DNA of 64,000 nt from a virus: positions 9,487-73,486 of IMG/VR virus record IMGVR_UViG_3300028025_003013; one strand, 5' to 3'. Positions 8,939 through 18,748 of the stretch are shown one piece after another. Under the pieces are notes generated by a model. It saw only the letters and a program-made list of their open reading frames with translations, made no database searches and was not told the origin of the DNA. The first letter of the stretch is position 1. Every line of letters starts with the position of its first letter. Position numbers and translations under genes: made by a program.

Positions 8939-9126
8939 ACGTATACGAAGGTGTTGACATGGCAGAAGTCAATCGTGACTTGGAAGACATCGCCAACAAA
9001 GAACGTGAGGCGATGACCGAAGCTGAATTCGAAGCCATGATGGATGCGATGGAAGCTGACTATCTCGCAAAGCAGTACGAAGCCGAATCGTATGATTTAG
9101 ATGCAACTTATTATGGAGTGAAGTAA
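8935..9126 (+). CDS. hypothetical acidic protein
   Basis: AGGAG SD; coupled. Confidence 0.75.
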   Translation: MNVYEGVDMAEVNRDLEDIANKEREAMTEAEFEAMMDAMEADYLAKQYEAESYDLDATYYGVK

Positions 9127-9278
9127 TGAACAAAGAATTAAAAGCACTGGTGATTAAAGCAGGTGCACCACCACCATTGCTTGACGAAATTTGGTTTAAC
9201 ATCTTCTGCCAGCAATTTGCAGATGTGTTGTTGACTCAGGTTGAACAGGATGTTATGGAGAAAGAAATTAATGAATAA
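9126..9278 (+). CDS. hypothetical protein
   Basis: 50 aa, MNKELKALVIKAGAP...; TAATG coupling. Confidence 0.6.
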   Translation: MNKELKALVIKAGAPPPLLDEIWFNIFCQQFADVLLTQVEQDVMEKEINE

Positions 9279-9573
9279 ATTTGCAGCAATGAAACAAAAG
9301 AATGCGATTGACAGTGAGATTCTGTTAATCACGCAGGAAGAATGTGCCGAAGTAAGCCAAGCGATTAGCAAGGTTTTTAGGTTTGGTATGGATGATGAAT
9401 ACAAAGGCATTACTAATCGTGAACATCTCGAAGAAGAGATCGGTGACCTGATGTGTATGATTGATCTGTTGATTGAGAATGGTATCGTTAGCGAGTCGGC
9501 AGTAATGACTGCAAAGAACGAAAAGATGAACAAGCTGATGACATGGTCTGGCATTTTTAAGGAGCAGGTATGA
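9271..9573 (+). CDS. MazG-like NTP pyrophosphohydrolase
   Basis: QEECAEV..AISK..RFG...LEEEIGDL motif. Confidence 0.85.
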   Translation: MNKFAAMKQKNAIDSEILLITQEECAEVSQAISKVFRFGMDDEYKGITNREHLEEEIGDLMCMIDLLIENGIVSESAVMTAKNEKMNKLMTWSGIFKEQV

Positions 9574-9797
9574 TTACGATTAGTGGAATTACCAAGCGTC
9601 AAAAGCGCATGCTAAACATCATGTGGAATTTGGATACCGAGGAAGACTACTTTGAGTGGTATGAATCTTTGGATGCCGAGTTGCAAGCTGAAGCGGATCT
9701 GCTACAGCGTTTGGTGATCTTGGAATCGTATGAAGAAGATCTCGGTGACTGTGTTGATGCCAAGAAAGTTCTTGGAAAATTTGCCAAACTTGACTAA
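9570..9797 (+). CDS. hypothetical protein
   Basis: 75 aa, coupled. Confidence 0.7.
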   Translation: MITISGITKRQKRMLNIMWNLDTEEDYFEWYESLDAELQAEADLLQRLVILESYEEDLGDCVDAKKVLGKFAKLD

Positions 9798-9841
9798 GTC
9801 TGGTATACTTGTCGGTGTCGGTTATGATAAAGGATTATATT

Positions 9842-10108
9842 ATGTATGATATTGAAGAAGAAAAGCCCAAGCATGCTACTGGCTTGATGGGTATTGACTA
9901 CGAGACAGCAGATCGAATCACTCGGTTGACCTTAACTGAGTACCGAGATCGGTTGCAGCATGAATTGGACATGTGGAATGCAGATCCTCAGGATGAGACG
10001 AATCCCGATGGGTACTGGATGCATCCCGAAGATGTAGTGCGTAACTGCAAGACAGTTAAACTTATTGATGTGCTTTTACAAGATTTTGGTGGAGAATTGT
10101 ATGCCTAA
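9842..10108 (+). CDS. hypothetical protein
   Basis: AAGGA SD; TTGCCA-17-TATACT promoter at 9781-9809. Confidence 0.7.
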   Translation: MYDIEEEKPKHATGLMGIDYETADRITRLTLTEYRDRLQHELDMWNADPQDETNPDGYWMHPEDVVRNCKTVKLIDVLLQDFGGELYA

Positions 10109-10598
10109 TTGGTGCTATAACAGCGTAGTTATTTCTCATGATGATGAGACACTTATTGATGCCTTGGAACAGGAATTGATGAAGGGTGATGATGCCAAGG
10201 TGTTTAATCATCTTGTGCCTCGTCCAGTCGAAGAGGAAGAAAACTGGTACGCATGGAACATCAACGCATGGGGTACAAAGTGGGATGTGACTCCGTATGA
10301 TTGGGATCGTGATGGTAATTCTATCACTATGACTTTTGATTCTGCATGGTCGCCACCGATTAATCTGTATGAAACACTGACTGAAGAAGGTTGGTATGTT
10401 AATGCAAAGTATCATGAGCCTGGATGTGTATTCATTGGAAAGTTTGAAGATGGCTTTGATGAATATTATGAGTACGACATTACAGACGAAGATGCAATCA
10501 ATGAGTTGCCAGAAGAACTGATTGAGTTCGGTAACCTGTTGGAAGAGCATGAGAACTGGAAAGAAAATAATGAAGCTACAGACGAAACTGAAGATTGA
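10101..10598 (+). CDS. DUF1281/YubB-like ferredoxin-fold protein
   Basis: MPNWC...WY.W....WGTKWD...FDSAWSPP...Y.EPG motifs. Confidence 0.8.
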   Translation: MPNWCYNSVVISHDDETLIDALEQELMKGDDAKVFNHLVPRPVEEEENWYAWNINAWGTKWDVTPYDWDRDGNSITMTFDSAWSPPINLYETLTEEGWYVNAKYHEPGCVFIGKFEDGFDEYYEYDITDEDAINELPEELIEFGNLLEEHENWKENNEATDETED

Positions 10599-10707
10599 GA
10601 ATTTCTTTAATCAGATTCAGCGTAACTTTACGTTGATGGAATGGTTCGTTATAATGCTGGTTGTTTACATGTTGGGTAATGTATTGTTTAACTGGATCTT
10701 TAGATGA
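10570..10707 (+). CDS. small membrane protein
   Basis: Hydrophobic C-terminus; coupled to the next gene. Confidence 0.5.
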   Translation: MKLQTKLKIENFFNQIQRNFTLMEWFVIMLVVYMLGNVLFNWIFR

Positions 10708-11183
10708 AACAAAAGTGGCTTGATGCGTTCATGGACACAGCCGAGCGATTTGCTCAGTTGTCGAGTTCGCGAAGATTGCATGTTGGTGCAGTTGTCGTAA
10801 AGGATAATCGCATCATCTCGATCGGCTACAATGGTATGCCAGCTGGTTGGACTAATGACTGCGAGCATAAGATCTATTGTGATGATGGAGATTATTCTGA
10901 ACAGCTTCTTCCTAAGGATTCGAATCAGTGGGTAAAGTATAAACTTGTCACAAAGGATGAAGTTATCCATGCTGAGGCGAATGCCATAGCCAAGTTAGCC
11001 AGAGATGGCGAAAGCGGAAGTGGCAGTGCTATGTTTTGTACTCATGCGCCATGTGTGCAGTGTGCCAAACTAATCTATGGGGCTGGTATCACCAAGATGT
11101 TCTATAGAGACAGCTATCGGGATGCTGATGGGATAAACTTCCTTACAGCTACAGGTGTTGAGGTAATACCCTACAAAAAGTAA
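10704..11183 (+). CDS. cd: dCMP deaminase
   Basis: VGAV...GYNG, HAEANAI and PCVQC zinc motifs. Confidence 0.93.
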   Translation: MKQKWLDAFMDTAERFAQLSSSRRLHVGAVVVKDNRIISIGYNGMPAGWTNDCEHKIYCDDGDYSEQLLPKDSNQWVKYKLVTKDEVIHAEANAIAKLARDGESGSGSAMFCTHAPCVQCAKLIYGAGITKMFYRDSYRDADGINFLTATGVEVIPYKK

Positions 11184-11199
11184 GGTTTTAATAAAATAC

Positions 11200-11240
11200 T
11201 TGACGGAAATTCAAAACTGAGGTAGAATTGGTTATAAATA
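11200..11240 (+). promoter_or_regulatory. sigma70 promoter plus T4-type late promoter
   Basis: TTGACG-17-TAGAAT; TATAAATA at 11233-11240. Confidence 0.75.
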
Positions 11241-11257
11241 CTTAAATGGAGTTCAAA

Positions 11258-11566
11258 ATGAAAAAGATCGTAAAATTTGCAGTTGCTTCTCTTGTGGTTT
11301 CTTTTGGCTTTGCATCGACAGCGCATGCATGGGGCGAAAGAGAACAAGGTGCTCTTGCTGGTGTAGCTGGTCTTTGGATATTTCAACAATTGTCCAAGCC
11401 ACAAGTTGTAGTTCAGCAACCACCAGTTGTGTATGCTCCTCCGCAAGTTGTGTATACTCAACCACCAGTTGTAGTATATAACCCTGTGAGACAATGGTGT
11501 GAGACCAGAGTTATTATCGACCAAAATGGTTTTCATCGCACTGCTCAGGTTTGTTGGTATCAGTAA
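11258..11566 (+). CDS. secreted Pro/Val-rich protein
   Basis: Signal peptide ending AHA; (Q/P)PPVVY repeats. Confidence 0.8.
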   Translation: MKKIVKFAVASLVVSFGFASTAHAWGEREQGALAGVAGLWIFQQLSKPQVVVQQPPVVYAPPQVVYTQPPVVVYNPVRQWCETRVIIDQNGFHRTAQVCWYQ

Positions 11567-11576
11567 GTTGTAAGTG

Positions 11577-11605
11577 TTGACTTTAAAAGAAAAGAAACGT
11601 ATAAT
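11577..11605 (+). promoter_or_regulatory. sigma70 promoter of the tRNA operon
   Basis: TTGACT-17-TATAAT; predicted +1 is the A of ATG 11612. Confidence 0.9.
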
Positions 11606-11611
11606 TCAATT

Positions 11612-11734
11612 ATGTTAAAAATAGTTTGTTCCTCGTTGGCTAAACATCTACCACTCAATAGTGGCTGGACAAACACACGCCCACAGTCAACAGACGTATT
11701 TGCGATTGAGTATAGTGAGGGTTTTGGAAACTAG
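11612..11734 (+). CDS. attenuator leader peptide (40 aa, contains all 20 amino acids)
   Basis: MLKIVCSSLAKHLPLNSGWTNTRPQSTDVFAIEYSEGFGN*; 32 distinct codons; stop lies inside the antiterminator 5' arm. Confidence 0.8.
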   Translation: MLKIVCSSLAKHLPLNSGWTNTRPQSTDVFAIEYSEGFGN

Positions 11735-11766
11735 ATTAGACAACAAGTCTACTTCCCAAAACCCTC
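11717..11766 (+). promoter_or_regulatory. antiterminator hairpin
   Basis: GAGGGTTTTGG (11717-11727) pairs perfectly with CCAAAACCCTC (11756-11766); inner stem TAGATT/AGTCTA. Confidence 0.85.
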
Positions 11767-11797
11767 TGAGATGAAAGTCCAGAGGGTTTTTTGTTTT
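11758..11797 (+). terminator. intrinsic terminator (attenuator)
   Basis: AAAACCCTCTG...GAAA loop...CAGAGGGTTTT followed by TTGTTTT; shares 11758-11766 with the antiterminator. Confidence 0.9.
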
Positions 11798-11816
11798 AGG
11801 GCATCGTCCCAAATTA

Positions 11817-11831
11817 GATCTTTAACAATTT
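11817..11831 (+). promoter_or_regulatory. rrn-type boxA (Nus antitermination)
   Basis: GATCTTTAACAATTT versus E. coli rrn leader GCTCTTTAACAATTT. Confidence 0.7.
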
Positions 11832-11842
11832 GAAGTTTCTGT

Positions 11843-11916
11843 TCCCTGATAGTGTAGCGGTAACACAGCTGACTTTGACTCAGCTATCGCAGGTTCGAAT
11901 CCTGCTCGGGGTGCCA
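11843..11916 (+). tRNA. tRNA-Gln(UUG)
   Basis: Cloverleaf; anticodon loop CTTTGAC; TTCGAAT T-loop; encoded CCA. Confidence 0.92.
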
Positions 11917-11954
11917 TAATAAAGCATATTGCAAAGTATGCTTTGATATGATAT

Positions 11955-12028
11955 GGGGGTAAAACTTTAAAGTGAAGTAACTGGCTTTTAACCAGTAAAA
12001 CTAGGAGCGTTACCTAGTACCCCTACCA
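11955..12028 (+). tRNA. tRNA-Lys(UUU), non-canonical
   Basis: All four stems pair; loop CTTTTAA; A8/U14; T-loop AGCGTTA; CCA. Confidence 0.85.
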
Positions 12029-12036
12029 GATACAAT

Positions 12037-12112
12037 GGTGTCCATAGTGTAAAGGTTAGCACCCAACTCTGTGAAAGTTGTAGAAAGGGATCGTTCCCCT
12101 TTGGATACCCCA
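12037..12112 (+). tRNA. tRNA-His(GUG)
   Basis: G-1:C73; loop CTGTGAA; T-loop ATCGTTC. Confidence 0.88.
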
Positions 12113-12114
12113 GT

Positions 12115-12189
12115 GGTGATATAGCACAGCGGTAGTGCACTTCCTTCATACGGAATAGGTCGTTTGTTCGAATCAAACTATCACCACCA
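12115..12189 (+). tRNA. tRNA-Met(CAU), elongator
   Basis: Cloverleaf; loop TTCATAC; G1-C72 paired. Confidence 0.85.
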
Positions 12190-12200
12190 AAGATTAATAT

Positions 12201-12287
12201 GGGTGTTGCCCACTACGGCAGTCTGTAAAACTGTTCCTGAAGGTAGTGAAGTCAAGGCACGTGGAGCGTTACCATCAACACCCACCA
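12201..12287 (+). tRNA. tRNA-Tyr(GUA)-like RNA without a normal D-arm
   Basis: Acceptor GGGTGTTG/CAACACCC-ACCA; anticodon arm GCAGT-CTGTAAA-ACTGT; T-loop AGCGTTA. Confidence 0.7.
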
Positions 12288-12293
12288 TATTAT

Positions 12294-12370
12294 GCCCCGA
12301 TGACGGAATTGGTATACGTGTTGGTCTTAGAAACCAAATTTTGGGAGTTCGAGTCTCCCTTGGGGCACCA
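12294..12370 (+). tRNA. tRNA-Leu(UAG)
   Basis: Loop CTTAGAA; short variable region; CCA. Confidence 0.9.
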
Positions 12371-12378
12371 AGTATTTT

Positions 12379-12453
12379 GCATCGTTAACTCAGCGGTAGA
12401 GTGTCTCCCTTACAAGGAGAAGGTCGGCAGTTCGATCCTGTCACGATGTACCA
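12379..12453 (+). tRNA. tRNA-Val(UAC)
   Basis: Loop CTTACAA; cloverleaf; CCA. Confidence 0.93.
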
Positions 12454-12460
12454 GTTTTAT

Positions 12461-12536
12461 GCCAAGATAGCTCATCAGGTAGAGCACCAGTTTGAAGCAT
12501 TGGGTGTGGTCGGTTCGAGTCCGACTCTTGGTACCA
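12461..12536 (+). tRNA. tRNA-Phe(GAA)
   Basis: Loop TTGAAGC; cloverleaf; CCA. Confidence 0.9.
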
Positions 12537-12540
12537 GTTT

Positions 12541-12615
12541 TGCCTTATAGCTCAGAGGAAGAGCAATCGCTTGATAAGCGATAGGTCGACATTTCGAAAT
12601 TGTCTAAGGCAACCA
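12541..12615 (+). tRNA. tRNA-Ile(GAU)
   Basis: Loop TTGATAA; cloverleaf; CCA. Confidence 0.92.
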
Positions 12616-12616
12616 T

Positions 12617-12693
12617 ATCCCAATGGCGCAATTGGTAGACGCACCTCTCTCAAAAGGAGTCTGTTGAAGGTTCGAGTCCTTCTTGGGATACCA
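12617..12693 (+). tRNA. tRNA-Leu(CAA)
   Basis: Loop CTCAAAA; short variable region; CCA. Confidence 0.87.
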
Positions 12694-12699
12694 GATTAT

Positions 12700-12775
12700 G
12701 CCCCATTAGTAAAATGGATGATTACGCTGTGCTACGAACGCAGAGGTGGAGGTTCAATTCCTTCATGGGGTACCA
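12700..12775 (+). tRNA. tRNA-Arg(ACG)
   Basis: Loop CTACGAA; CCA. Confidence 0.92.
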
Positions 12776-12783
12776 AAGTTTAT

Positions 12784-12875
12784 GGAAGATAATGCAGCGG
12801 GGTTGGTCCTGCGACCAGCCTTGAAAACTGGGTTCTCAGAAATGGGATGGGGTTCGACTCCTCTGTCTTCCGCCA
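12784..12875 (+). tRNA. tRNA-Ser(UGA)
   Basis: Loop CTTGAAA; long variable arm; G73; CCA. Confidence 0.88.
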
Positions 12876-12891
12876 ATATAAGGAGCATGAT

Positions 12892-13086
12892 ATGCAAATA
12901 ACGAGAGCAGAACAGGCAAACATTAAACAGCATAACTTGGAGCAACGTCGTCTTCAAGACAAGAGAGATGAAGACTATCGCAAGGTAGTTGAGAAAAGAT
13001 CGTATGAACGAATCATAGAAGATCGAGTTGATCGCAATCGTCGCCTGGATTTAGACAAAGGTAGGAATATAGATATTGAATGTTAG
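12892..13086 (+). CDS. hypothetical protein inside the tRNA array
   Basis: AGGAG SD; MQITRAEQ...KGRNIDIEC. Confidence 0.7.
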   Translation: MQITRAEQANIKQHNLEQRRLQDKRDEDYRKVVEKRSYERIIEDRVDRNRRLDLDKGRNIDIEC

Positions 13087-13170
13087 AGAGTGGGCAGGAT
13101 GGTAATGCAGCAGTTTGCTAAACTGTAGATCCGAAAGGGTCAAAGGGTTCGACTCCCTTACTCTCTGCCA
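13085..13170 (+). tRNA. tRNA-Ser(GCU)
   Basis: Loop TTGCTAA; long variable arm; CCA. Confidence 0.92.
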
Positions 13171-13172
13171 AT

Positions 13173-13247
13173 ACGGCATTCGTTCAACGGATAGGACATG
13201 AGTCTTCTAAACTCAGAATGGTGGTTCGATTCCTCCATGCCGTGCCA
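13173..13247 (+). tRNA. tRNA-Arg(UCU)
   Basis: Loop CTTCTAA; CCA. Confidence 0.9.
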
Positions 13248-13253
13248 GTGTTC

Positions 13254-13328
13254 GGGCTGATAGCTTAATGGTAAAGCGTTCGACTCATAATCGATTGAGT
13301 CTGAGTTCAATTCTCAGTCAGCCCACCA
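13254..13328 (+). tRNA. tRNA-Ile2(CAU), probable lysidine type
   Basis: CGA-CTCATAA-TCG anticodon arm as in bacterial Ile2. Confidence 0.78.
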
Positions 13329-13370
13329 GTGTAATGTTAAATAGAGGTAATGCAGTAAGAAAGGTCTAAT

Positions 13371-13928
13371 ATGAATATCCTAGCACTTGATGCAAGTGGT
13401 CTACCTAGAAAGTGGATCAACTTTGAAGATGCAATTACGTACCATGCCAAAGGGCAGGTTGTATGGTCTCTTGGAGATCCTGTTGCAAAGTTTCGTGGTG
13501 GTTTGCAAAATGATGGCACATTGTCTTACATCGAGTCGCCATCTATCATTGCGATCAAAGGTAAAGGATATTCACTTGACAAAGTCGGGAGAGTAATCCT
13601 GACAAACAAAACTTTGTTTGGTCGTGACAGACATCTGTGTGCTTATTGTGGTGATGTATTTTTACCAAGCAAGTTATCACGTGACCATGTTGTGCCTGTA
13701 TCAAAGGGTGGTGAAGATAGTTGGACAAACGTAGTAACATCATGCGTCAAGTGCAATACGCACAAGGGTGCTAAGACACTTGAACAAAGTGGCTTGCAGT
13801 TGCTGTATGTTCCATACGAACCAAACCACTACGAGAATATGATTTTACAAAACAGAAACATTCTTGCTGATCAAATGGAGTACTTGTTATCAGGTGTTCC
13901 AAAGAACAGTAGAGTGCATCTGCTATAG
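13371..13928 (+). CDS. HNH endonuclease (McrA/HNH_5-like)
   Basis: RD..CAYCG...SRDHVVP.SKGG...W.N.V..C..CN..KG. Confidence 0.92.
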   Translation: MNILALDASGLPRKWINFEDAITYHAKGQVVWSLGDPVAKFRGGLQNDGTLSYIESPSIIAIKGKGYSLDKVGRVILTNKTLFGRDRHLCAYCGDVFLPSKLSRDHVVPVSKGGEDSWTNVVTSCVKCNTHKGAKTLEQSGLQLLYVPYEPNHYENMILQNRNILADQMEYLLSGVPKNSRVHLL

Positions 13929-14004
13929 TGCGATACCCGAGCGGTCTAAGGGCACAGCCTGCAAAACTGATGATTCGTGGGTTCGAATCCCACTCGCACT
14001 TCCA
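13927..14004 (+). tRNA. tRNA-Cys(GCA)
   Basis: Loop CTGCAAA; U73; CCA; imperfect anticodon stem. Confidence 0.85.
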
Positions 14005-14013
14005 AGATAGTTG

Positions 14014-14042
14014 TTGACCTTAATTCAGGTTTAGTGTATAAT
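14014..14042 (+). promoter_or_regulatory. internal sigma70 promoter
   Basis: TTGACC-17-TATAAT. Confidence 0.8.
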
Positions 14043-14063
14043 TGATTTTTAGATGGAGAAAAA

Positions 14064-14201
14064 ATGTTTAAAGATGATGTGGCACTGGGCGAATTTTTGG
14101 AATTTTTGGGTGACCTGTCCCTCGAGGGGGAGTCTTTTGAAATATGTCTGGCTGCACTGAAACTGCAGTCCGCACTGAAAGAAATTTATCCGCAGTATTG
14201 A
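14064..14201 (+). CDS. small hypothetical protein
   Basis: 45 aa, MFKDDVALGEFLEFLGDL...; GGAG SD. Confidence 0.6.
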   Translation: MFKDDVALGEFLEFLGDLSLEGESFEICLAALKLQSALKEIYPQY

Positions 14202-14210
14202 AAATACTGC

Positions 14211-14239
14211 TTGACTTAAATTAGCATTTGATGTATAAT
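14211..14239 (+). promoter_or_regulatory. internal sigma70 promoter
   Basis: TTGACT-17-TATAAT, preceded by inverted repeat GCAGTATT-gaa-AATACTGC. Confidence 0.85.
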
Positions 14240-14245
14240 TAGAGT

Positions 14246-14330
14246 TCTGAAGTCCTCTATTAGTCTTTACGTAAAGTCGGAAGCATGAGGCTTGGGGTGT
14301 GGCTCATCGTGAGATGCCCAGTCACCCCAC
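14246..14330 (+). ncRNA. unassigned structured RNA A
   Basis: Two hairpins between the promoter and tRNA-Glu; no ORF. Confidence 0.5.
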
Positions 14331-14334
14331 CTTT

Positions 14335-14409
14335 GCACGATTCGTCTATCGGTTAGGACACCAGCCTTTCACGTTGGTAAGATGGGTTCGATTCCCATAT
14401 CGTGTACCA
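14335..14409 (+). tRNA. tRNA-Glu(UUC)
   Basis: Loop CTTTCAC; CCA. Confidence 0.93.
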
Positions 14410-14630
14410 TATTAAATTGTATTGGGTTGCCAATGCCAGTAGGTAATTTAGTTCGCCCCCAACTGACGGAGTTGGACTGCTAAGTTACACGAAACCTTGA
14501 GATCATATCAGGAGGACGCTGGACAAAATTGGAACGTAATGTGGTTAACAGACAAGTCCATGGACGTCATGGTAGGGCAGGTTCAAAACTGTTATTTCTG
14601 TTAAACATCCCAGTATAATTTAATATGGTA
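14405..14630 (+). ncRNA. unassigned structured RNA B
   Basis: 22-bp closing stem (2 G-U) enclosing several hairpins. Confidence 0.7.
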
Positions 14631-14638
14631 AAGTTTAT

Positions 14639-14714
14639 TCCCTAGTAGCACAGCGGTAGTTGCACTTGACTGTTAATCAAGGTGTCCGTGGTTCGATCCC
14701 ACGCTGGGGAGCCA
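14639..14714 (+). tRNA. tRNA-Asn(GUU)
   Basis: Loop CTGTTAA; CCA. Confidence 0.93.
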
Positions 14715-14718
14715 ATAT

Positions 14719-14795
14719 CGCGATGTATGGAAGTGGTCATCCGCCCAGTCTCATAAGCTGTGGAATCGCTGGTTCGAATCCAGCCATCGCAACCA
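14719..14795 (+). tRNA. tRNA-fMet(CAU)-like
   Basis: C1:A72 mismatch; loop CTCATAA; lacks the GGG/CCC anticodon-stem pairs. Confidence 0.78.
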
Positions 14796-14797
14796 AA

Positions 14798-15020
14798 CGT
14801 GCCGAGTGTCTTTGGCTAATGTGATCCGCATGACGAGAAACAGTGTGACAACTGTAGGATGGTTCTTCTTCTGTAATGGAAGTCATGGGTAACCATGGGT
14901 CGACCTAACCAGCGTTGGCAACACGAAAGTCTTGTGCATGGCGAGTGGGTGGAAGGTACGTGTGATGGGTGCGATAGCGTCGTATCTTGATGTGCTATAA
15001 TTACCACGATGTGCAGGAAG
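14798..15020 (+). ncRNA. unassigned structured RNA C
   Basis: GC-richer 225-nt spacer with many nested stems; no credible ORF. Confidence 0.6.
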
Positions 15021-15024
15021 CAAT

Positions 15025-15098
15025 GCCCTTGTAGTATATTGGTATTACAGTTGCCTTGTAAGCATCAAAAGAAGGTTCGATTCCTTACTGGGGCACCA
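15025..15098 (+). tRNA. tRNA-Thr(UGU)
   Basis: Loop CTTGTAA; CCA. Confidence 0.85.
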
Positions 15099-15106
15099 AG
15101 TTTTTA

Positions 15107-15181
15107 GGTCTCAAAGTGTTCATGGACGCACATATGCCTGTCACGCATAAAGAAGGGGATCGTTACCCCTTGAGACCGCCA
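15107..15181 (+). tRNA. tRNA-Asp(GUC), non-canonical
   Basis: Loop CTGTCAC; A8/U14; T-loop ATCGTTA; G73; CCA. Confidence 0.87.
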
Positions 15182-15326
15182 TTGTTAAGTGTTATCAAGG
15201 TATCGTGTATGGACCCATACACTACTCGACAGTAAGGGTGCGACTGACACTGTCTGATATAACTGTTATTCGCTCGCCAGTGCTAGCTACATTTTTGGCA
15301 AATCGGCAGATAACACTTAACAATGG
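15179..15326 (+). ncRNA. unassigned structured RNA D
   Basis: Perfect 18-bp closing stem enclosing three hairpins. Confidence 0.7.
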
Positions 15327-15330
15327 TTTT

Positions 15331-15405
15331 GGGGGATTAGTGATAATGGGAGCACATGTGCTTTGCAAGCATGAAGTGGGAGTTCGATCCTCCCATCCTC
15401 CACCA
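15331..15405 (+). tRNA. tRNA-Ala(UGC)
   Basis: G3-U70; loop TTTGCAA; CCA. Confidence 0.93.
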
Positions 15406-15413
15406 AAATATAT

Positions 15414-15490
<77 letters not shown>

Positions 15491-15504
15491 ACATCGAAGG
15501 TAAT

Positions 15505-15957
15505 ATGTTACATCTTATTGAAACTCTAACCGATAAGTTTTTTGAATTGCTTGCAGATGATCCTGTGAGACCAACCATACCACATGTGGACAGAGTTGGT
15601 GAGAACAAGGACATCTTTGTATTTCGTGATGAGAACGATACAGTGAAAGCTATTACCTGCGTCAGCTATCAGGCAACCATACCTACCAAGGAATCAGAGT
15701 TGTTTGAGCAATGCGACAATCCTACAATTGCGATCTTTTACACCATCTGGAGTTATGCTCCTGGTGCTGGCAGAAAACTAATCTTTGATGCAGTGCGACA
15801 TATCAAAGAAAACGATACATGCATAGAACGATTCATTACACTTTCTCCAAAGACTGAGATGGCTAGAAAATTCCATCTAGGAAACAAAGCCATCATCCTA
15901 AGAGAAAATGAAGAGACTGTCAACTACGAATATATACAGGAGAAAACCAATGGCTAA
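15505..15957 (+). CDS. hypothetical protein, possibly GNAT-fold
   Basis: DDPVRP.IP...FYTIWSY.PGAGR.LI...TLSP...MARKFH. Confidence 0.75.
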   Translation: MLHLIETLTDKFFELLADDPVRPTIPHVDRVGENKDIFVFRDENDTVKAITCVSYQATIPTKESELFEQCDNPTIAIFYTIWSYAPGAGRKLIFDAVRHIKENDTCIERFITLSPKTEMARKFHLGNKAIILRENEETVNYEYIQEKTNG

Positions 15958-16084
15958 TGTTAAGCAGGGTAATCTTACAAAGAGTCCTCAGTGGTGGAAA
16001 CACCTCAAGGACTTTAAGCGTTTCTTCTGGAAAGCAGAACGCAAAGCACAAAACAATGACATCAAAGGGAGACTGCATGAGTGA
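15950..16084 (+). CDS. small basic protein
   Basis: 44 aa, MANVKQGNLTKSPQWWKHLKDFKRFFWKAERK...; AGGAG SD. Confidence 0.7.
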   Translation: MANVKQGNLTKSPQWWKHLKDFKRFFWKAERKAQNNDIKGRLHE

Positions 16085-16268
16085 TACACCATCTACATTT
16101 AAGCAACAGTGGGAAGCCAAGAAGTTACTTAAACGTGCAAAGAAGAAAGCCAAGCACCAGCTACAAAAAGAAGGTTTCTCTAAGAACGAAGCCACCAAGC
16201 AGGTTAACTCAGCATTGAATCGTATTGTGGCTAATCCGATTCGCAAAGCAAGTGGTCGAGGTGGATAA
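16077..16268 (+). CDS. small basic protein
   Basis: MSDTPSTFKQQWE...; GGAG SD. Confidence 0.7.
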   Translation: MSDTPSTFKQQWEAKKLLKRAKKKAKHQLQKEGFSKNEATKQVNSALNRIVANPIRKASGRGG

Positions 16269-16567
16269 TGAGTTATAGTCGCTGGGGTGGTTCTGTATGG
16301 TATAGTTTTTACAACTGCAGTTCAGGTGACACCAGAGACACTCAGGTGCTATCTCTGTGGTACAGCATGGATCATATCATCGACTGGTTGTATGCAGATC
16401 TAGAAGATGTTACAGCTGAAGATATTGTAGAAATGTATAAATGTACGCATGCAGAAGCTACAGAAGCCATGGAGATCATAGGCTGGTTCATGGATGATGT
16501 AATGGAAGATTATCCTGATGCACTGCAAATTCTTGATAAAATAGACAAAATCGGTGAGCCCAGATGA
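16268..16567 (+). CDS. hypothetical protein
   Basis: 99 aa; TAATG coupling. Confidence 0.75.
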   Translation: MSYSRWGGSVWYSFYNCSSGDTRDTQVLSLWYSMDHIIDWLYADLEDVTAEDIVEMYKCTHAEATEAMEIIGWFMDDVMEDYPDALQILDKIDKIGEPR

Positions 16568-16634
16568 TGGAATTGGTATACATATCAGACTTAAAATCTG
16601 AGTTCTGAGGGTTCGAGTCCCTCTCTGGGCACCA
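16558..16634 (+). tRNA. tRNA-Leu(UAA)
   Basis: Loop CTTAAAA; short variable region; CCA. Confidence 0.92.
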
Positions 16635-16720
16635 AACCCTCCCCATACAGGTAGAAAAATCCCTTTAAAATCAACAACTTACGTAATCCCCTCAGTTTCT
16701 GGGGGTTTTGCAGAAACTTG

Positions 16721-16749
16721 TTGACGGAAATTGGGTTCTCATGCATAAT
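16721..16749 (+). promoter_or_regulatory. sigma70-type early promoter
   Basis: TTGACG(GAAATT)-17-CATAAT. Confidence 0.8.
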
Positions 16750-16784
16750 TATGTTATTGAGTTAGAAAACTGTTTGGAGATTAA

Positions 16785-17729
16785 ATGATGAATGCCGTGA
16801 AAACTACTGTGAATTTCGATCGTGTTACTGGTAAAAACATTGTGATGGTCGGTGATGCTGGTCCTTTTAAGACTGCAAAAACTGGCGTTGAATTAGAACG
16901 TGCTGTTGAATTCTTTTTTAAGAAAGCCACTGGCGTGAAAAAAGATTACGATCAAATTATGGGTGGTGTGTCTGTGTCCTCTGAGCCAAAAGAAGAAAAG
17001 TATGACATCAATACACGATTCGGTTTCGTCGAGAAACTCGTGTCGATGGTTGCGTCTGGTGTCCAGCCCTCTGCTGTGATTACTGGTTCTGGTGGTCTCG
17101 GTAAGACATACACTGTTACAAAAACATTGCAGTCTTCTGGCTACAAAGATATCTCTGACTTGGCTGAGTTCCAAGTCGGTTCTGTGATTAACACTCGCAA
17201 GTGCTTTACCTTTGTTAAAGGTTATTCTACTCCAAAGGGTTTGTATCGCACTCTGTTCGAAAACAACAAGTCCATCATCGTGTTTGATGATTGCGATGCA
17301 GTGTTGAAAGATCCAGTTGCTTTGAACCTGTTGAAAGGTGCTTTGGATTCTTACGGCAAACGTATCATCAGCTGGAATGCTGACATGCGTGACGATGACC
17401 TGCCACGTAGCTTCAACTTCGAAGGTCGTGTGATTTTCATTAGCAACATGAGCCAAGACAAAATTGATCAGGCTATCCGTAGTCGTTCAATGATGATTGA
17501 TCTGAGCATGACTCTTGACCAGAAGATTGATCGTATGGAGCACATTGCTTTGTCTGATGAGTTTATGCCTGAGTACACAAAGACTCAGAAGCAAGATGCT
17601 CTGGGTTTGATCCGTGACATCAAAGATGAAGCCAAGGAAATTTCCCTGCGCACTTTGATCTCGGTTACCAAGATCCGTGCCAGCAACGATGACTGGAAAG
17701 ATCTTGCTACTTACATGTTGACTGCTTAA
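16785..17729 (+). CDS. AAA+/P-loop ATPase
   Basis: Walker A GSGGLGKT, Walker B IIVFDDCD, arginine finger AIRSR. Confidence 0.88.
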   Translation: MMNAVKTTVNFDRVTGKNIVMVGDAGPFKTAKTGVELERAVEFFFKKATGVKKDYDQIMGGVSVSSEPKEEKYDINTRFGFVEKLVSMVASGVQPSAVITGSGGLGKTYTVTKTLQSSGYKDISDLAEFQVGSVINTRKCFTFVKGYSTPKGLYRTLFENNKSIIVFDDCDAVLKDPVALNLLKGALDSYGKRIISWNADMRDDDLPRSFNFEGRVIFISNMSQDKIDQAIRSRSMMIDLSMTLDQKIDRMEHIALSDEFMPEYTKTQKQDALGLIRDIKDEAKEISLRTLISVTKIRASNDDWKDLATYMLTA

Positions 17730-17739
17730 GGAGAAAGGT

Positions 17740-17973
17740 ATGAGTATAATGGCTGAGATGGTTATGGAAATACAATCTGATATCGCTGATGGTATCCTGT
17801 CCTTTGGTGCAATTGCTGAACGATATAACATTAATCGTGCGGATGTGGAATTGATTGCCGATGAGATGATGGAACAGCAATACGATGAGTCAATGGATGG
17901 TGACTTTGATTCTGCCATGGCCAGTGCTGGTTATGGAACTGACGAAGATTATGGTTATTATGGAGATGAATGA
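17740..17973 (+). CDS. hypothetical acidic protein
   Basis: SMDGDFDSAMASAGYGTDEDY motif. Confidence 0.8.
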   Translation: MSIMAEMVMEIQSDIADGILSFGAIAERYNINRADVELIADEMMEQQYDESMDGDFDSAMASAGYGTDEDYGYYGDE

Positions 17974-18214
17974 TATGTACGTATCTTATACTGAAGCCCG
18001 AGTGGCTACCCTACAATATAATCAAGAGCATGGTTCGTTCTTTGATCGTGGATCCGCTGACTCATACTATGGTCGTGAACCGATTCCCCATCGTGGTGGT
18101 GTAGGTGGTGCTTCTGGTCCAAGAATTGAATCCAACCATCCTGAAGATGTTCAGGCTTACATGGCTGGTTATGAGTTCAACGAAATGTATGGCGACAAGA
18201 AAGACTGGGGTTAA
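17966..18214 (+). CDS. hypothetical protein
   Basis: HG..FDRG.ADSYY.R...PH...Y.AGY phage motif. Confidence 0.75.
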   Translation: MNDMYVSYTEARVATLQYNQEHGSFFDRGSADSYYGREPIPHRGGVGGASGPRIESNHPEDVQAYMAGYEFNEMYGDKKDWG

Positions 18215-18215
18215 A

Positions 18216-18416
18216 ATGATATTAGAAATGGCCAATGGCTCTAAAAGAAAGTTTGATGTCAACAACAAGAAAGATGTTGAGTTGTATAGAACTTTTTTAA
18301 TGACTCGTCGTTGGGGTGGCACTGGTTGTCCTTTTGTTTTAGAATTCCCGCATCTGACGATCCCAGATATGATCAAAGATAAGATGATGCATAAGTATAT
18401 GAAGATAGAAATTTAA
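18216..18416 (+). CDS. hypothetical protein
   Basis: W...GCPF.LE.P...IPDMI motif. Confidence 0.7.
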   Translation: MILEMANGSKRKFDVNNKKDVELYRTFLMTRRWGGTGCPFVLEFPHLTIPDMIKDKMMHKYMKIEI

Positions 18417-18490
18417 GTCTCGCTGGTGTAATGGCAGCACGATGGTCTCCAAAACCATTAGTCGGAGTTCGAGTCTCTGGCGGGATGCCA
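18417..18490 (+). tRNA. tRNA-Trp(CCA)
   Basis: Loop CTCCAAA; G73; CCA. Confidence 0.92.
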
Positions 18491-18496
18491 AATAAT

Positions 18497-18571
18497 GCAG
18501 GTATAATTCAGTGGTAGAATGTCTCGTTGCCAACGAGAATGTCGTCGGTTCGAACCCGACTACCTGCTCCA
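18497..18571 (+). tRNA. tRNA-Gly(GCC)
   Basis: Loop TTGCCAA; U73; CCA. Confidence 0.94.
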
Positions 18572-18578
18572 CGTTTTC

Positions 18579-18652
18579 GCAGGGTTCGTATAGTGGTAAT
18601 ACCTTAGCCTTCCAAGCTAATGCTGAGAGTTCGATTCTCTTACCCTGCTCCA
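18579..18652 (+). tRNA. tRNA-Gly(UCC)
   Basis: Loop CTTCCAA; U73; CCA. Confidence 0.94.
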
Positions 18653-18656
18653 ATTT

Positions 18657-18732
18657 GCTGATATGGCTCAGTCGGTAGAGCACATCCTTGGTAAGGATGA
18701 GGTCACCAGTTCGATTCTGGTTATCAGCACCA
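18657..18732 (+). tRNA. tRNA-Thr(GGU)
   Basis: Loop TTGGTAA; canonical cloverleaf; CCA. Confidence 0.95.
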
Positions 18733-18748
18733 TAGTTTGGAAACAGAC

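What the first reader, a model, noticed from the sequence alone, without database searches (positions are those of the whole stretch)
11577..11797. Pan-amino-acid attenuator: an all-20-amino-acid leader peptide appears to gate the phage tRNA array
Seen: a TTGACT-17-TATAAT promoter whose predicted +1 is the ATG of a 40-codon ORF (11612-11734, absent from the ORF track), MLKIVCSSLAKHLPLNSGWTNTRPQSTDVFAIEYSEGFGN*. All 20 amino acids appear within the first 34 codons, and 32 of the 40 codons are distinct (Leu TTA/TTG/CTA/CTC, Ser TCC/TCG/TCA/AGT, Ile ATA/ATT, Gly GGC/GGT/GGA). The last codons and stop form the 5' arm of a long hairpin (GAGGGTTTTGG 11717-11727 pairs with CCAAAACCCTC 11756-11766). 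Its 3' arm is also the 5' arm of a U-tailed terminator (11758-11797), so the two structures exclude each other. The first tRNA starts about 45 nt later. Established: this is the logic of trp/his-type attenuators, but those use runs of one or a few amino acids and control biosynthetic genes. Inference: smooth translation to the stop masks the antiterminator and transcription stops. Stalling at almost any upstream codon (starvation, or host anticodon nucleases such as PrrC, PARIS AriB or VapC), or failure to initiate, frees the antiterminator and turns on replacement tRNAs. Nearly every phage anticodon has a readable codon in the leader; the exceptions are Arg-UCU, Thr-GGU and internal Met. I do not know of a described phage system of this kind.
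Basis: partly seen in the sequence, partly recalled or inferred. Interest (0 to 1): 0.95.

Follow-up and report, generated by a model that had tools for sequence, protein, structure and literature searches.

The report
All-amino-acid leader before phage tRNAs
A family of uncultured freshwater phages puts a tiny conserved coding frame in front of its 25-28 tRNA genes; the frame uses nearly every one of the 20 amino acids and ends inside an RNA on/off switch, so it looks like a sensor that turns the phage's tRNA genes on when protein synthesis falters.

Summary
At 11577-11797 a TTGACT-17-TATAAT promoter sits 6 nt before the ATG of a 40-codon ORF containing all 20 amino acids. The ORF's last codons form the 5' arm of a hairpin of about -23 kcal/mol. 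The hairpin's 3' arm is also the 5' arm of a U-tailed terminator, and tRNA-Gln follows 45 nt later.

I found the element in 117 related viral loci: 90 distinct sequences and 75 distinct peptides of 32-46 aa. Of the peptides, 45 have all 20 amino acids, 29 have 19 and 1 has 18. The background chance of all 20 in 40 residues is about 0.3-0.6%. Single-copy residues (Cys, Tyr, His, Asp) change column between lineages but are almost never lost. The reading frame is always open. Both competing hairpins form in 75 of 75 and show compensatory changes. The element heads the tRNA array wherever enough downstream sequence is held.

A relative too diverged for nhmmer to detect has an unalignable 35-codon, all-20 ORF at the same place.

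Best reading (about 0.6): a ribosome-mediated attenuator that reports decoding capacity for all amino acids. Nothing is shown experimentally. Five literature searches found no description. The scan noted this same stretch once more in an overlapping window, not on other DNA.

The parts
11577..11605 (+). sigma-70-type early promoter: TTGACT, 17 nt, TATAAT
   Evidence: 11 of 12 consensus matches. Among 75 distinct leaders, a -10 box lies 6 nt before the ATG in 38, 7 nt in 24 and 10 nt in 1.
11612..11734 (+). Leader ORF: 40 codons plus TAG, all 20 amino acids, apparently leaderless
   Evidence: The frame is open in 45 of 45 aligned variants, while frames +1 and +2 carry stops in 44 and 45 of 45. 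7 of 75 relatives use a Shine-Dalgarno sequence instead of a leaderless start.
11651..11664 (+). In-ORF hairpin P1, CCACT / AGTGG with a 4-nt loop (codons 14-18); possible pause hairpin
   Evidence: 97.8% of cells paired over 45 sequences. Two pairs have changes on both sides, e.g. CCGTT/AACGG in L112. Its function is inferred.
11666..11679 (+). Conserved TGG-N7-CACG inside the ORF (Trp ... Arg codons)
   Evidence: Present in 70 of 75 leaders, including the most divergent group. Its role is unknown.
11717..11766 (+). Antiterminator hairpin. The 5' arm GAGGGTTTTGG is codons 36-39; the stop TAG 11732-11734 lies inside the hairpin; the 3' arm is CCAAAACCCTC.
   Evidence: -23.2 kcal/mol here; mean -23.9 (range -16.3 to -30.8) in 75 leaders. 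Compensatory changes seen.
11758..11797 (+). Intrinsic terminator: AAAACCCTCTG / CAGAGGGTTTT with an inner GAU:GUC stem, a GAAA loop and a T tract
   Evidence: -18.9 kcal/mol here; mean -17.9 in 75 leaders. It shares at least 5 nt with the antiterminator in 75 of 75. 8 pairs of the P1-plus-terminator structure (6 in the terminator helix) have changes on both sides.
11817..11831 (+). boxA-like motif GATCTTTAACAATTT between the terminator and the first tRNA
Evidence: TTC[TA]TTAA[ACT]AA was found in 26 of 43 relatives at this place; the regex misses the window's own variant. The E. coli boxA consensus is recalled, not tested.
11843..18732 (+). Regulated tRNA array: 25 ARAGORN calls plus Rfam-only tRNAs at 11955-12025 and 12784-12871
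   Evidence: In relatives the first tRNA after the element is tRNA-Gln in 41 of 43, and no tRNA lies within 3 kb upstream in 37 of 37.

Best explanation
This is a ribosome-mediated transcription attenuator that gates the phage's tRNA array.

Proposed mechanism:
1. Host RNA polymerase starts at or next to the ATG.
2. A ribosome translates a roughly 40-codon leader that contains (nearly) every amino acid once or twice.
3. If the ribosome keeps pace and reaches the last five or six codons or the stop, it covers the 5' arm of the antiterminator. The shared arm is then free to form the terminator, and transcription ends about 185 nt from the start.
4. If the ribosome fails to start, or stalls at any earlier codon because one aminoacyl-tRNA is scarce, the antiterminator forms first. 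It is made earlier and is the more stable hairpin. The terminator cannot then form and polymerase runs into the array, past a boxA-like motif.
5. New phage tRNAs would restore translation and shut the gate again, giving a feedback loop.

Shown: the anatomy, its conservation, the covariation, the position at array heads and the selection for a complete amino-acid set.

Inferred: translation of the ORF, termination, the direction of the switch, the pause role of hairpin P1 and the physiological triggers.
For: 1. Anatomy. The promoter, ORF and overlapping hairpins lie at the stated coordinates.

2. The ORF is conserved as an ORF.
- 89 of 90 distinct copies keep it.
- Frame 0 is open in 45 of 45 aligned variants, against stops in 44 and 45 of 45 for the other two frames. 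Only 6.5% of shuffled ORF bodies stay open.
- In the alignment, indels inside the ORF are nearly all multiples of three.
- Two start modes occur: a -10 box 6-7 nt before the ATG in 62 of 75 leaders, and a Shine-Dalgarno sequence in 7 of 75.

3. The amino-acid set is under selection.
- Of 75 distinct peptides (32-46 aa), 45 have 20 kinds, 29 have 19 and 1 has 18. Phage proteins average 15-16 kinds per window of the same length, with P(20) of 0.0008 at 34 aa and 0.006 at 40 aa.
- Tyr occurs exactly once in 40 of 40 peptides but in 7 different alignment columns. Cys occurs once in 37 of 40, also in 7 columns. His occurs once in 40 of 40.
- Column shuffling of 13 representatives less than 70% identical to each other gives a mean of 4.5 with at least 19 kinds and 1.07 with 20. 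The observed values are 13 and 7, and 0 of 20,000 shuffles reach them.
- Resampling only the positions that differ between representatives gives P(at least 19) of about 0.20 and P(20) of about 0.035 per lineage.

4. An independent replicate. Relative G018, not detected by nhmmer, has an unalignable SD-led 35-codon ORF with all 20 amino acids, followed by a terminator, a boxA-like motif and tRNA-Gln.

5. The switch structure.
- Antiterminator and terminator share at least 5 nt in 75 of 75 leaders.
- 95.4% and 96.6% of cells are paired, against 30-60% when the partners are slid. Changes on both sides occur in 5 pairs (P1 plus antiterminator) and 8 pairs (P1 plus terminator).
- One shared-arm position covaries three ways: A/T/A, G/T/A and G/C/G.

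6. Position.
- No tRNA lies within 3 kb upstream in 37 of 37. In 34 of the 37 a tRNA is the next feature downstream; the other 3 have too little sequence.
- In about 33 of 43 there is no other promoter between the terminator and the first tRNA.

7. tRNA coverage. Leaders engage a mean of 24.1 of 27 phage tRNA species. Random 34-codon windows engage 16.9 +/- 2.1, with a maximum of 23, and 0 of 3,597 reach 24.

8. Leaderless precedent. A conserved 95-aa gene (18784) has TATAAT-N5/6-ATG in at least 4 relatives (L008, L009, L028, L047).
Against: - No experiment or usable transcript map exists. The RNA runs are stored only as contigs, and these cannot show starts, ends or levels.
- Two of those contigs run from the upstream gene into the leader, and one begins 13 nt before the ATG. 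This does not fit an exclusively leaderless start.
- 30 of 75 peptides lack one or two amino acids. Val is missing in 22, although tRNA-Val is present in the arrays checked.
- Synonymous-codon choice is not significantly more diverse than expected: 24.1 against 23.0 species engaged, with P above 0.07 for each sequence.
- About 10 of 43 relatives have a promoter between the terminator and the first tRNA. The window itself has further promoters inside the array, at 14014 and 14211. The gate therefore does not control all tRNA transcription.
- Whether all 20 lie in the sensing zone depends on the assumed ribosome edge. With the edge at the GGG core, 39 of 40 peptides hold every amino-acid kind of the peptide upstream. 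If the whole arm must be free, one codon is lost (usually the single Asp; Tyr in the window) and 0 of 75 do.
- At equilibrium, about half of the sequences prefer a trimmed hairpin plus the terminator. Read-through without a ribosome therefore rests on folding order.
- Part of the peptide is conserved (HLPLxSGW, GFGK), so a function for the peptide itself is not excluded.
- The antiterminator of G018 is weak: the whole fold is only -11 kcal/mol.
- Eight array heads in five more distant phages have no such ORF.
Confidence: 0.6

Rival explanations
1. A coupling sensor only. The leader ORF and the two hairpins form an attenuator that reports whether any ribosome follows polymerase (initiation capacity, ribosome supply, transcription-translation coupling). 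It does not report shortage of particular amino acids or tRNAs. The full amino-acid set would have another cause or add little.
For: - It uses the same anatomy and conservation as the best explanation.
- There are no runs of any codon, so a single scarce tRNA gives only one or two slow codons per leader.
- Val is often absent.
- Codon-level diversity is not significant.
Against: It gives no reason for the strongest signal in the data. Single-copy rare residues are retained while they move between columns, and 75 of 75 peptides have at least 18 kinds. G018 reaches all 20 with an unalignable sequence.
Confidence: 0.13
2. An independent small gene. The unit from promoter through ORF to terminator makes a roughly 40-aa micro-protein, or a roughly 185-nt stable RNA acting in trans as some attenuator RNAs do. 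It merely sits upstream of the array, and the overlap of the two hairpins has no switching role.
For: - The peptide has a conserved core (HLPLxSGW..R, GFGK).
- About 10 of 43 relatives have a separate promoter for the array after the terminator.
- In L143 and L225 the element is followed by protein genes within the sequence held.
- Trans-acting attenuator RNAs and leader peptides are on record. For PMC6614838 and PMC7298713 I saw only the search listing and the start of the abstract.
Against: - In about 33 of 43 relatives the terminator is the only thing between the sole promoter and the first tRNAs. A constitutive terminator would silence them.
- The conserved peptide parts coincide with RNA helices. 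In helix P1 pairing is kept at the cost of a Ser-to-Asn change, and no CCY Pro codon appears in 45 sequences.
- A peptide function does not predict a complete amino-acid set.
- The peptide matches no PHROG family and no protein in the large protein collection.
Confidence: 0.12
3. A non-translated structured leader. The region is a processing or stability element for the tRNA precursor, or a protein-binding antitermination site, and the open frame is a by-product.
For: - There is no Shine-Dalgarno sequence in most copies.
- The gene callers behind the protein collection do not hold this ORF.
- The boxA-like motif next to it shows that the leader carries RNA signals.
Against: - The frame is open in 89 of 90 copies, whereas the other two frames are closed.
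- A Shine-Dalgarno sequence appears exactly in lineages that have lost the promoter-adjacent ATG arrangement.
- The amino-acid statistics only have meaning if the frame is read.
- No Rfam family reaches its threshold. The only match is a sub-threshold 32-bit hit to RF02744, whose cut-off is 88 bits.
Confidence: 0.05

Closest known systems
Leader-peptide transcription attenuators of enterobacterial amino-acid operons (trpL, hisL, pheL, leuL, thrL, ilvL)
   Same: A short ORF lies in the 5' leader. An intrinsic terminator precedes the regulated genes. An antiterminator shares one arm with the terminator. The stop codon is placed so that a ribosome that finishes favours the terminator and a ribosome stalled upstream favours read-through. 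The stop-to-terminator distance of 57-65 nt is similar to what I recall for trp.
   Different: - There is no run of regulatory codons; each of about 20 amino acids appears once or twice.
- It controls tRNA genes, not biosynthetic enzymes.
- It is phage-borne.
- It mostly lacks a Shine-Dalgarno sequence and appears leaderless.
- No upstream segment pairs with the antiterminator arm, so no translation should mean read-through rather than super-attenuation.
- Multivalent attenuation (ilv, thr) covers two or three amino acids, not all.

Background is from recall and from PMC1183508 and PMC3082878, for which I saw only listings and abstract starts.
uORFs and leader peptides that sense general translation stress (E. 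coli toiL upstream of topAI-yjhQ; erm, cat and vmlR leaders)
   Same: A short translated ORF reports ribosome stalling from many causes and switches downstream expression on.
   Different: As I recall them, those systems respond to drug-stalled ribosomes, often through Rho or translation attenuation, and have no complete amino-acid set. None controls tRNA genes. For PMC12121999 and PMC9226507 I saw only the listing and the start of the abstract.
pyrBI / pyrE leaders (attenuation through transcription-translation coupling)
   Same: The outcome depends on how closely the ribosome follows polymerase through a short leader ORF next to a terminator.
   Different: There the ribosome blocks the terminator itself and the signal is UTP-dependent polymerase pausing (recalled). 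Here the ribosome would block the antiterminator, and the presumed signal is decoding speed.
T-box riboswitches
   Same: They link the supply of charged tRNA to read-through of a leader terminator by way of a competing antiterminator.
   Different: T-boxes bind one uncharged tRNA directly, need no translation, occur mainly in Firmicutes and regulate synthetase and amino-acid genes. No T-box match was found in the Rfam scan.
rrn-type boxA / Nus antitermination leaders
   Same: A boxA-like motif (GATCTTTAACAATTT at 11817-11831) sits just before a long untranslated RNA operon and is conserved in relatives.
   Different: It lies downstream of the switch and would act after the decision. Similarity to the E. 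coli consensus is recalled, and no Nus dependence was tested.

Membership tests
Ribosome-mediated (leader-peptide) transcription attenuator | A short ORF between the promoter and the regulated genes, conserved as an open frame | tested here: met
   89 of 90 distinct copies keep it. Frame 0 is open in 45 of 45, while frames +1 and +2 have stops in 44 and 45 of 45.
Ribosome-mediated (leader-peptide) transcription attenuator | An intrinsic terminator (GC-rich hairpin plus U tract) upstream of the regulated genes | tested here: met
   -15.1 to -21.0 kcal/mol with a T tract in 75 of 75. 96.6% of cells are paired and 8 pairs have double changes.
Ribosome-mediated (leader-peptide) transcription attenuator | An alternative antiterminator that shares an arm with the terminator | tested here: met
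   At least 5 nt are shared in 75 of 75 by independent folds. There is three-way covariation at one shared position. 95.4% of cells are paired, against 36-60% when slid. Caveat: 36 of the 45 aligned sequences were found with a pattern that fixes the outer arms.
Ribosome-mediated (leader-peptide) transcription attenuator | The ORF end is placed so that a finishing ribosome masks the antiterminator arm but not the terminator | tested here: met
   The stop lies 13 nt (42 of 45), 17 nt (1) or 19 nt (2) after the GGG core, and 27-34 nt before the CCC of the shared arm. The ribosome footprint size is recalled.
Ribosome-mediated (leader-peptide) transcription attenuator | Regulatory codons are a run or cluster for the amino acid(s) whose supply is controlled | tested here: not met
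   There are no runs. Cys, Trp, His, Tyr and Asp occur once in 70-75 of 75 peptides. This is the feature that makes it a new variant.
Ribosome-mediated (leader-peptide) transcription attenuator | An upstream pause or anti-antiterminator hairpin (the trp 1:2 type) | tested here: inconclusive
   A conserved in-ORF hairpin P1 exists, with 97.8% of cells paired and two pairs with double changes. It does not pair with the antiterminator arm, and pausing cannot be tested here.
Ribosome-mediated (leader-peptide) transcription attenuator | Termination and read-through respond to translation of the leader | not testable with these tools
   The RNA runs are contigs only.
Leaderless mRNA | The transcript starts at, or within a few nt of, the AUG, with no Shine-Dalgarno sequence | tested here: inconclusive
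   The -10 box lies 6 or 7 nt before the ATG in 62 of 75 leaders. The same arrangement occurs on a conserved 95-aa gene. One RNA contig begins 13 nt upstream, and two bridge from the upstream gene.
T-box riboswitch | Match to the T-box leader model (specifier loop and T-box sequence) | tested here: not met
   No T-box hit appeared in the Rfam E-value scan of 9000-28000.
rrn-type boxA antitermination signal | A boxA consensus upstream of an untranslated RNA operon | tested here: inconclusive
   The motif at 11817-11831 is conserved in at least 26 of 43 relatives. The consensus is recalled and no family model was available.

The most novel reading that the evidence does not exclude
The leader is a pan-aminoacyl-tRNA meter, a single roughly 34-codon test message carrying one codon for every amino acid. 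With it a phage measures in real time whether the infected cell can still decode all of them. It switches on its own complete tRNA set only when any one fails, for instance through codon-usage mismatch, starvation, host tRNA decay or host anticodon-nuclease defence. It then shuts the set off once the phage tRNAs restore decoding. This would be the first attenuator known to control tRNA genes, the first leader peptide selected for amino-acid completeness rather than for a run of one residue, and a regulated counter-defence.
Probability: 0.45. Interest if true: 0.95.

Novelty: new variant of a known kind. Interest (0 to 1): 0.88.

Why it matters
- **Phage tRNA genes.** They are widespread, but how their expression is controlled is essentially unknown. 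This element suggests that at least one large phage family expresses its tRNAs on demand, through feedback from translation itself.
- **Attenuation.** The classical principle would extend from sensing one to three amino acids to sensing all of them. This is a design not recorded in the literature I could search.
- **Built-in controls.** Natural leaders lacking Val or Cys, and leaders with or without a second promoter, make the hypothesis directly testable in vitro.
- **Uses.** It gives a compact candidate part for reporting global decoding capacity or tRNA-targeting defence activity.
- **Method.** Selection for compositional completeness can be detected in a 40-residue peptide.

Tried and rejected
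- **Rfam.** The scan of 9000-28000 gave only tRNAs, a tmRNA and a sub-threshold match of 11726-11791 to RF02744 (32 bits against a cut-off of 88). I treat that match as terminator-like noise.
- **blastn against cultured phages.** 11200-12200 matched only tRNA pieces.
- **Upstream 106-aa protein as an anchor.** It gave 4 loci without conserved synteny, so I dropped it.
- **The peptide as a protein.** It has no PHROG family and no homologue in the large protein collection within 22-70 aa. Longer and shorter lengths were not searched, so this only shows that gene callers do not hold it.
- **Missing Val versus tRNA-Val.** I tested whether phages whose leader lacks Val also lack tRNA-Val. They do not.
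- **Codon-level diversification.** Diversity beyond what the amino-acid composition gives is not significant.
- **Public RNA runs.** Six metatranscriptome runs hold parts of the stretch. I laid four of them, from four studies. All are stored as contigs, so depth, starts and ends cannot be read.
  - One 202-nt contig covers 11599-11798, but its 3' end is an assembly branch point; two other contigs overlap it by 30 nt.
  - Two contigs from two studies stop at 11719/11720, at the foot of the hairpin.
  - I draw no conclusion from these about termination, transcription start or habitat.
- **Bacterial and archaeal genomes.** 1 hit, on a 2,154-bp contig of a metagenome-assembled genome. The element is therefore not a host feature, as far as an exact pattern can tell.
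- **Relatives of the G018 version.** A terminator pattern gave 60 loci. Only the same phage and one 96%-identical copy with the identical peptide were related.
- **More distant phages.** Eight array heads in G013, G017, G019, G020 and G004 have no 25-60-codon ORF with 20 kinds. One 55-aa ORF has 19 and is not next to a terminator.
- **Supplementary files.** I asked for none, and no claim here depends on them.
Full report
**What is in the window**

The window is part of a 73-kb viral record estimated 46% complete. Its relatives are phages of about 160-175 kb from freshwater metagenomes. The nearest cultured phages share less than 46% identity in a neighbouring AAA protein.

At 11577-11605 there is a promoter, TTGACT-17-TATAAT, matching 11 of 12 consensus positions. 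Six bases later, at 11612, starts a 40-codon ORF ending in TAG at 11732-11734. Its product, MLKIVCSSLAKHLPLNSGWTNTRPQSTDVFAIEYSEGFGN, has all 20 amino acids, all within the first 34 codons, and 32 distinct codons.

Codons 36-39 (GAGGGTTTTGG, 11717-11727) pair with CCAAAACCCTC (11756-11766), giving a hairpin of -23.2 kcal/mol. The segment AAAACCCTCTG (11758-11768) also pairs with CAGAGGGTTTT (11780-11790) ahead of a T tract that ends at 11797, giving a terminator of -18.9 kcal/mol. tRNA-Gln starts at 11843, the first of 25 ARAGORN tRNAs. Rfam adds two more, at 11955-12025 and 12784-12871.

**Is the single ORF more than chance?**

- In 40-residue windows of the window's long ORFs, all 20 kinds occur at 0.26%. 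The figure is 0.63% in a larger set of 453 ORFs from relatives, 0.08% at 34 residues and 0.12% at 35. The mean is 15-16 kinds.
- Of 96 ATG-ORFs of 37-42 codons in the window, one has all 20, and it is this one.
- On its own this is suggestive but post hoc, so I looked for relatives.

**Relatives**

- A neighbouring AAA protein retrieved 56 related loci. blastn with the leader found copies at 74-95% identity in nine of them, and the ORF was conserved.
- An exact pattern on the hairpin arms retrieved 45 viral contigs.
- A search of 24 related records gave nine more divergent copies that the pattern had missed, plus one decayed copy.
- A terminator-only pattern followed by an nhmmer profile gave some 40 further variants.
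- Pooled, 117 loci have a full-length profile match, comprising 90 distinct sequences.
  - 87 of the 90 gave an ORF call.
  - Two of the other three were technical misses with an intact ORF: an interrupted T tract in L048 and a contig end in L076.
  - The third, L115, is a decayed copy with GTG in place of ATG and the terminator replaced by an inserted gene.
- No copy keeps the hairpins without the ORF.
- The pattern occurs once in 185,579 bacterial and archaeal species genomes, on a 2-kb contig of a metagenome bin.

**The ORF is maintained as an ORF**

- In 45 aligned variants, frame 0 is open from the promoter-adjacent ATG to a stop 13-19 nt after the GGG core of the hairpin arm.
- Frames +1 and +2 carry stops in 44 and 45 of 45. 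Shuffled ORF bodies stay open in 6.5% of trials.
- Alignment gaps inside the ORF are almost all multiples of three.
- Start signals differ by lineage. A -10 box lies 6 nt (38 leaders), 7 nt (24) or 10 nt (1) before the ATG. Seven leaders have a Shine-Dalgarno sequence instead, for example AAAGGAAG in L090 and L095, and five are unclassified.
- A promoter-adjacent ATG is not peculiar to this ORF.
  - The early promoters of the window share TATAAT-TAnnTTAT, and three of seven run straight into an ATG.
  - One of these opens a 95-aa gene conserved at 60-87% identity in relatives, with the same arrangement in at least four of them.
- These points argue that the ORF is translated. None of them proves it.

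**The amino-acid set is under selection**

- Of 75 distinct peptides (32-46 aa), 45 have 20 kinds, 29 have 19 and one has 18. The missing residue is Val in 22, Cys in 4, Gln in 2, and Trp, Asp and Phe in 1 each.
- Rare residues are kept at one copy while changing place. In the 40-peptide alignment:
  - Tyr occurs exactly once in 40 of 40, but in seven columns.
  - Cys occurs once in 37 of 40, also in seven columns.
  - His occurs once in 40 of 40, in three columns.
  - Asp occurs once in 39 of 40.
- Close relatives show Cys moving from WTCTRP to LCISR with the rest of the peptide unchanged (L077 against L090 and L095). This is separate from the deeper split between the window's clade and the others.
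- I shuffled residues within columns among 13 representatives less than 70% identical to each other. This keeps each column's own, already favourable, composition.
  - The shuffles gave a mean of 4.5 peptides with at least 19 kinds and 1.07 with 20.
  - The observed values are 13 and 7, and none of 20,000 shuffles reached either. Relatedness can inflate such a test.
- As a second control I resampled only the positions that differ between pairs of representatives, a mean of 21.7 positions. This gave P(at least 19) of about 0.20 and P(20) of about 0.035 per lineage.
- An independent replicate exists.
  - The complete relative G018 (AAA protein 64% identical) has no copy detectable by nhmmer or blastn.
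  - Directly before its terminator, two promoter-like sites, a boxA-like motif and tRNA-Gln lies an SD-led 35-codon ORF, MHFCISTSVKLSYDFNGQAIARPLTSNEGWDGHRV.
  - It has all 20 kinds. One near-identical copy has the same peptide.
- The G002 group (MKSIQLHSFYCQPEIFNLTGSWNASRRDSAEGLKM, 19 kinds in 35 residues) also lacks the HLPL core but keeps the architecture.
- Eight array heads in five more distant phages have nothing comparable.

**The RNA switch**

- Folding the two segments independently gives an antiterminator averaging -23.9 kcal/mol (range -16.3 to -30.8) and a terminator averaging -17.9 (range -15.1 to -21.0). They share at least 5 nt in 75 of 75 leaders.
- On the 45-sequence alignment, the P1-plus-antiterminator structure has 95.4% of cells paired, against 36-60% when partners are slid. 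Five pairs have changes on both sides.
- The P1-plus-terminator structure has 96.6% paired, against 30-58% when slid. Eight pairs have changes on both sides.
- 36 of the 45 sequences were ascertained with a pattern that fixes the outer arms, so the informative changes come from the inner stems, the terminator base and the nine divergent copies. They include:
  - TTTTGG:CCAAAA to TTTTGA:TCAAAA (L110).
  - GGAAA:TTTCC to GGTAA:TTACC (L109, L112).
  - A matched one-base shortening of both arms (L106).
  - CCCTCTG:CAGAGGG to CCCCGA:TCGGGG (L110, L111, L113).
- One shared-arm position is A/T/A, G/T/A or G/C/G in the three strands.
- At equilibrium, roughly half of the sequences prefer the full antiterminator and half a trimmed hairpin plus the terminator. 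This near-balance is what a switch needs. It also means that the outcome without a ribosome depends on folding order.

**Position and logic**

- In 37 of 37 pattern-found variants no tRNA lies within 3 kb upstream. In 34 of the 37 a tRNA (Gln in 33) is the next feature downstream; the other three have less than 190 nt of sequence.
- Over 43 variants with the first tRNA in reach, the spacer is 44-49 nt and without a promoter in about 33. About 10 have a promoter-like site after the terminator.
- Where there is no second promoter, a strong terminator between the only promoter and the first tRNAs makes sense only if it can be overridden.
- The stop codon lies inside the antiterminator, 27-34 nt before the shared arm. 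A finishing ribosome would therefore melt the 5' arm and leave the terminator free to form. A ribosome stalled or absent upstream would leave the antiterminator, which is transcribed first, to form.
- The extent of the sensing zone depends on where the ribosome's leading edge is put.
  - With duplex allowed from +11 of the P site (recalled) and the GGG:CCC core as the criterion, every amino-acid kind of the peptide lies in the zone in 39 of 40 peptides.
  - If the whole arm must be free, the zone loses one codon, usually the single Asp (Tyr in the window). The zone then holds 19 kinds in 37, 18 in 25 and fewer in 13 of 75 peptides.

**Other conserved features**

- A 5-bp hairpin inside the ORF (CCACT/AGTGG, codons 14-18) keeps pairing through two double changes, one at the cost of a Ser-to-Asn replacement. 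Its Pro codon is never CCY in the 45 aligned sequences.
- It is followed by TGG-N7-CACG in 70 of 75 leaders. By analogy with trp-type leaders this could be a pause signal that synchronises polymerase and ribosome. That is inference only.

**tRNA coverage**

- I took 27 tRNA species for the window and applied standard wobble rules.
- On that basis the leaders engage a mean of 24.1 species, and 24 in the window.
- Random 34-codon windows of phage genes engage 16.9 +/- 2.1, with a maximum of 23, and 0 of 3,597 reach 24.
- Given each peptide, redrawing synonymous codons gives 23.0, so the extra at codon level is small and not significant.
- Arrays cover all or nearly all amino acids, and absence of Val from a leader does not go with absence of tRNA-Val.

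**Evidence from RNA**

Six metatranscriptome runs hold parts of the stretch, and I laid four of them. All are kept as contigs, which cannot show ends or levels, and I draw nothing from them. Two points stand against an exclusively leaderless start: two contigs continue from the upstream gene into the leader, and one begins 13 nt before the ATG.

**Literature**

Five full-text searches found no description of a leader peptide with a complete amino-acid set, or of an attenuator before phage tRNA genes. I saw listings and abstract beginnings only and read no paper in full. The nearest concepts are classical attenuators, multivalent ilv and thr attenuation (recalled), and stress-sensing uORFs such as toiL (PMC12121999, listing only).

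**Verdict**

The element is real and conserved, and as far as I can tell it is undescribed. Mechanistically it belongs with ribosome-mediated attenuators but fails their defining feature of a run of regulatory codons. In place of that feature it has selection for amino-acid completeness, and it controls tRNA genes. I therefore rate it a new variant of a known kind. The attenuator reading gets a confidence of about 0.6. My confidence is higher, about 0.9, that the complete amino-acid set is under selection, and about 0.8 that the ORF plus the competing hairpins form a regulatory switch.

Noticed in passing
window 11817-11831; relatives at the same place: A boxA-like motif (GATCTTTAACAATTT; TTCTTTAAAAA in most relatives) lies between the terminator and tRNA-Gln. 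It is conserved in at least 26 of 43 variants. This suggests Nus-type processive antitermination over the untranslated array.
   Followed up: partly
window 5389, 8509, 11577, 16721, 18749, 29036, 29917: The early promoters share an extended consensus, TTGAC[TG]-17-[TC]ATAAT-TAnnTTAT. Three of them run directly into an ATG (11612, 18784, 29952), suggesting several leaderless early genes. TATAAT-N5-8-ATG occurs 11 times against 3.5 expected.
   Followed up: partly
window 26057-26446: The phage encodes a tmRNA (tag ANDEQFALAA). It matches the betaproteobacterial and permuted tmRNA models, which hints at the host group and at a wider investment in translation rescue.
   Followed up: no
window 11955-12025 and 12784-12871: Two tRNA-like genes are found by Rfam but not by ARAGORN. 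By my reading of the anticodon loops they are Lys-TTT and probably Ser-TGA. Earlier notes report unusual tertiary pairs in some of these tRNAs.
   Followed up: no
L103 (second tRNA of the array) and L089: ARAGORN calls a tRNA with anticodon TTA ('tRNA-Stop', an ochre-suppressor type) right after tRNA-Gln in L103. It calls a tRNA-Tyr with anticodon ATA at the same place in L089.
   Followed up: no
window 11666-11679 and relatives: TGG-N7-CACG (the Trp ... Arg codons) is kept in 70 of 75 leaders, including the group that lacks the HLPL core. It could be a polymerase pause signal or a nascent-peptide motif.
   Followed up: no
all leaders: Val is by far the amino acid most often missing from the leader (22 of 75), although it is common in phage proteins (7.2%) and tRNA-Val is present in the arrays checked.
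   Followed up: partly
L143 3237-3500; L225 3838-4100: A distant version of the element (42 codons, which I counted by eye as all 20 kinds, plus a terminator) has a 5' UTR of about 30 nt. Within the 1.6 kb held it is followed by protein-coding genes rather than tRNAs.
   Followed up: partly
L115 (record G010): This is a decayed copy. ATG is replaced by GTG, and the antiterminator and terminator are replaced by an inserted small gene before the tRNAs.
   Followed up: partly
window 13371-13928: An HNH endonuclease ORF lies inside the tRNA array (Pfam HNH_5, E = 4e-15). Insertions after the terminator in some relatives may be similar mobile genes.
   Followed up: no
window 14014-14201: A second unit of promoter, small ORF and terminator-like hairpin lies inside the array. 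It comprises TTGACC-17-TATAAT, an SD-led 45-codon ORF at 14064-14201 and a hairpin at 14118, followed by another promoter at 14211 that feeds tRNA-Glu.
   Followed up: no
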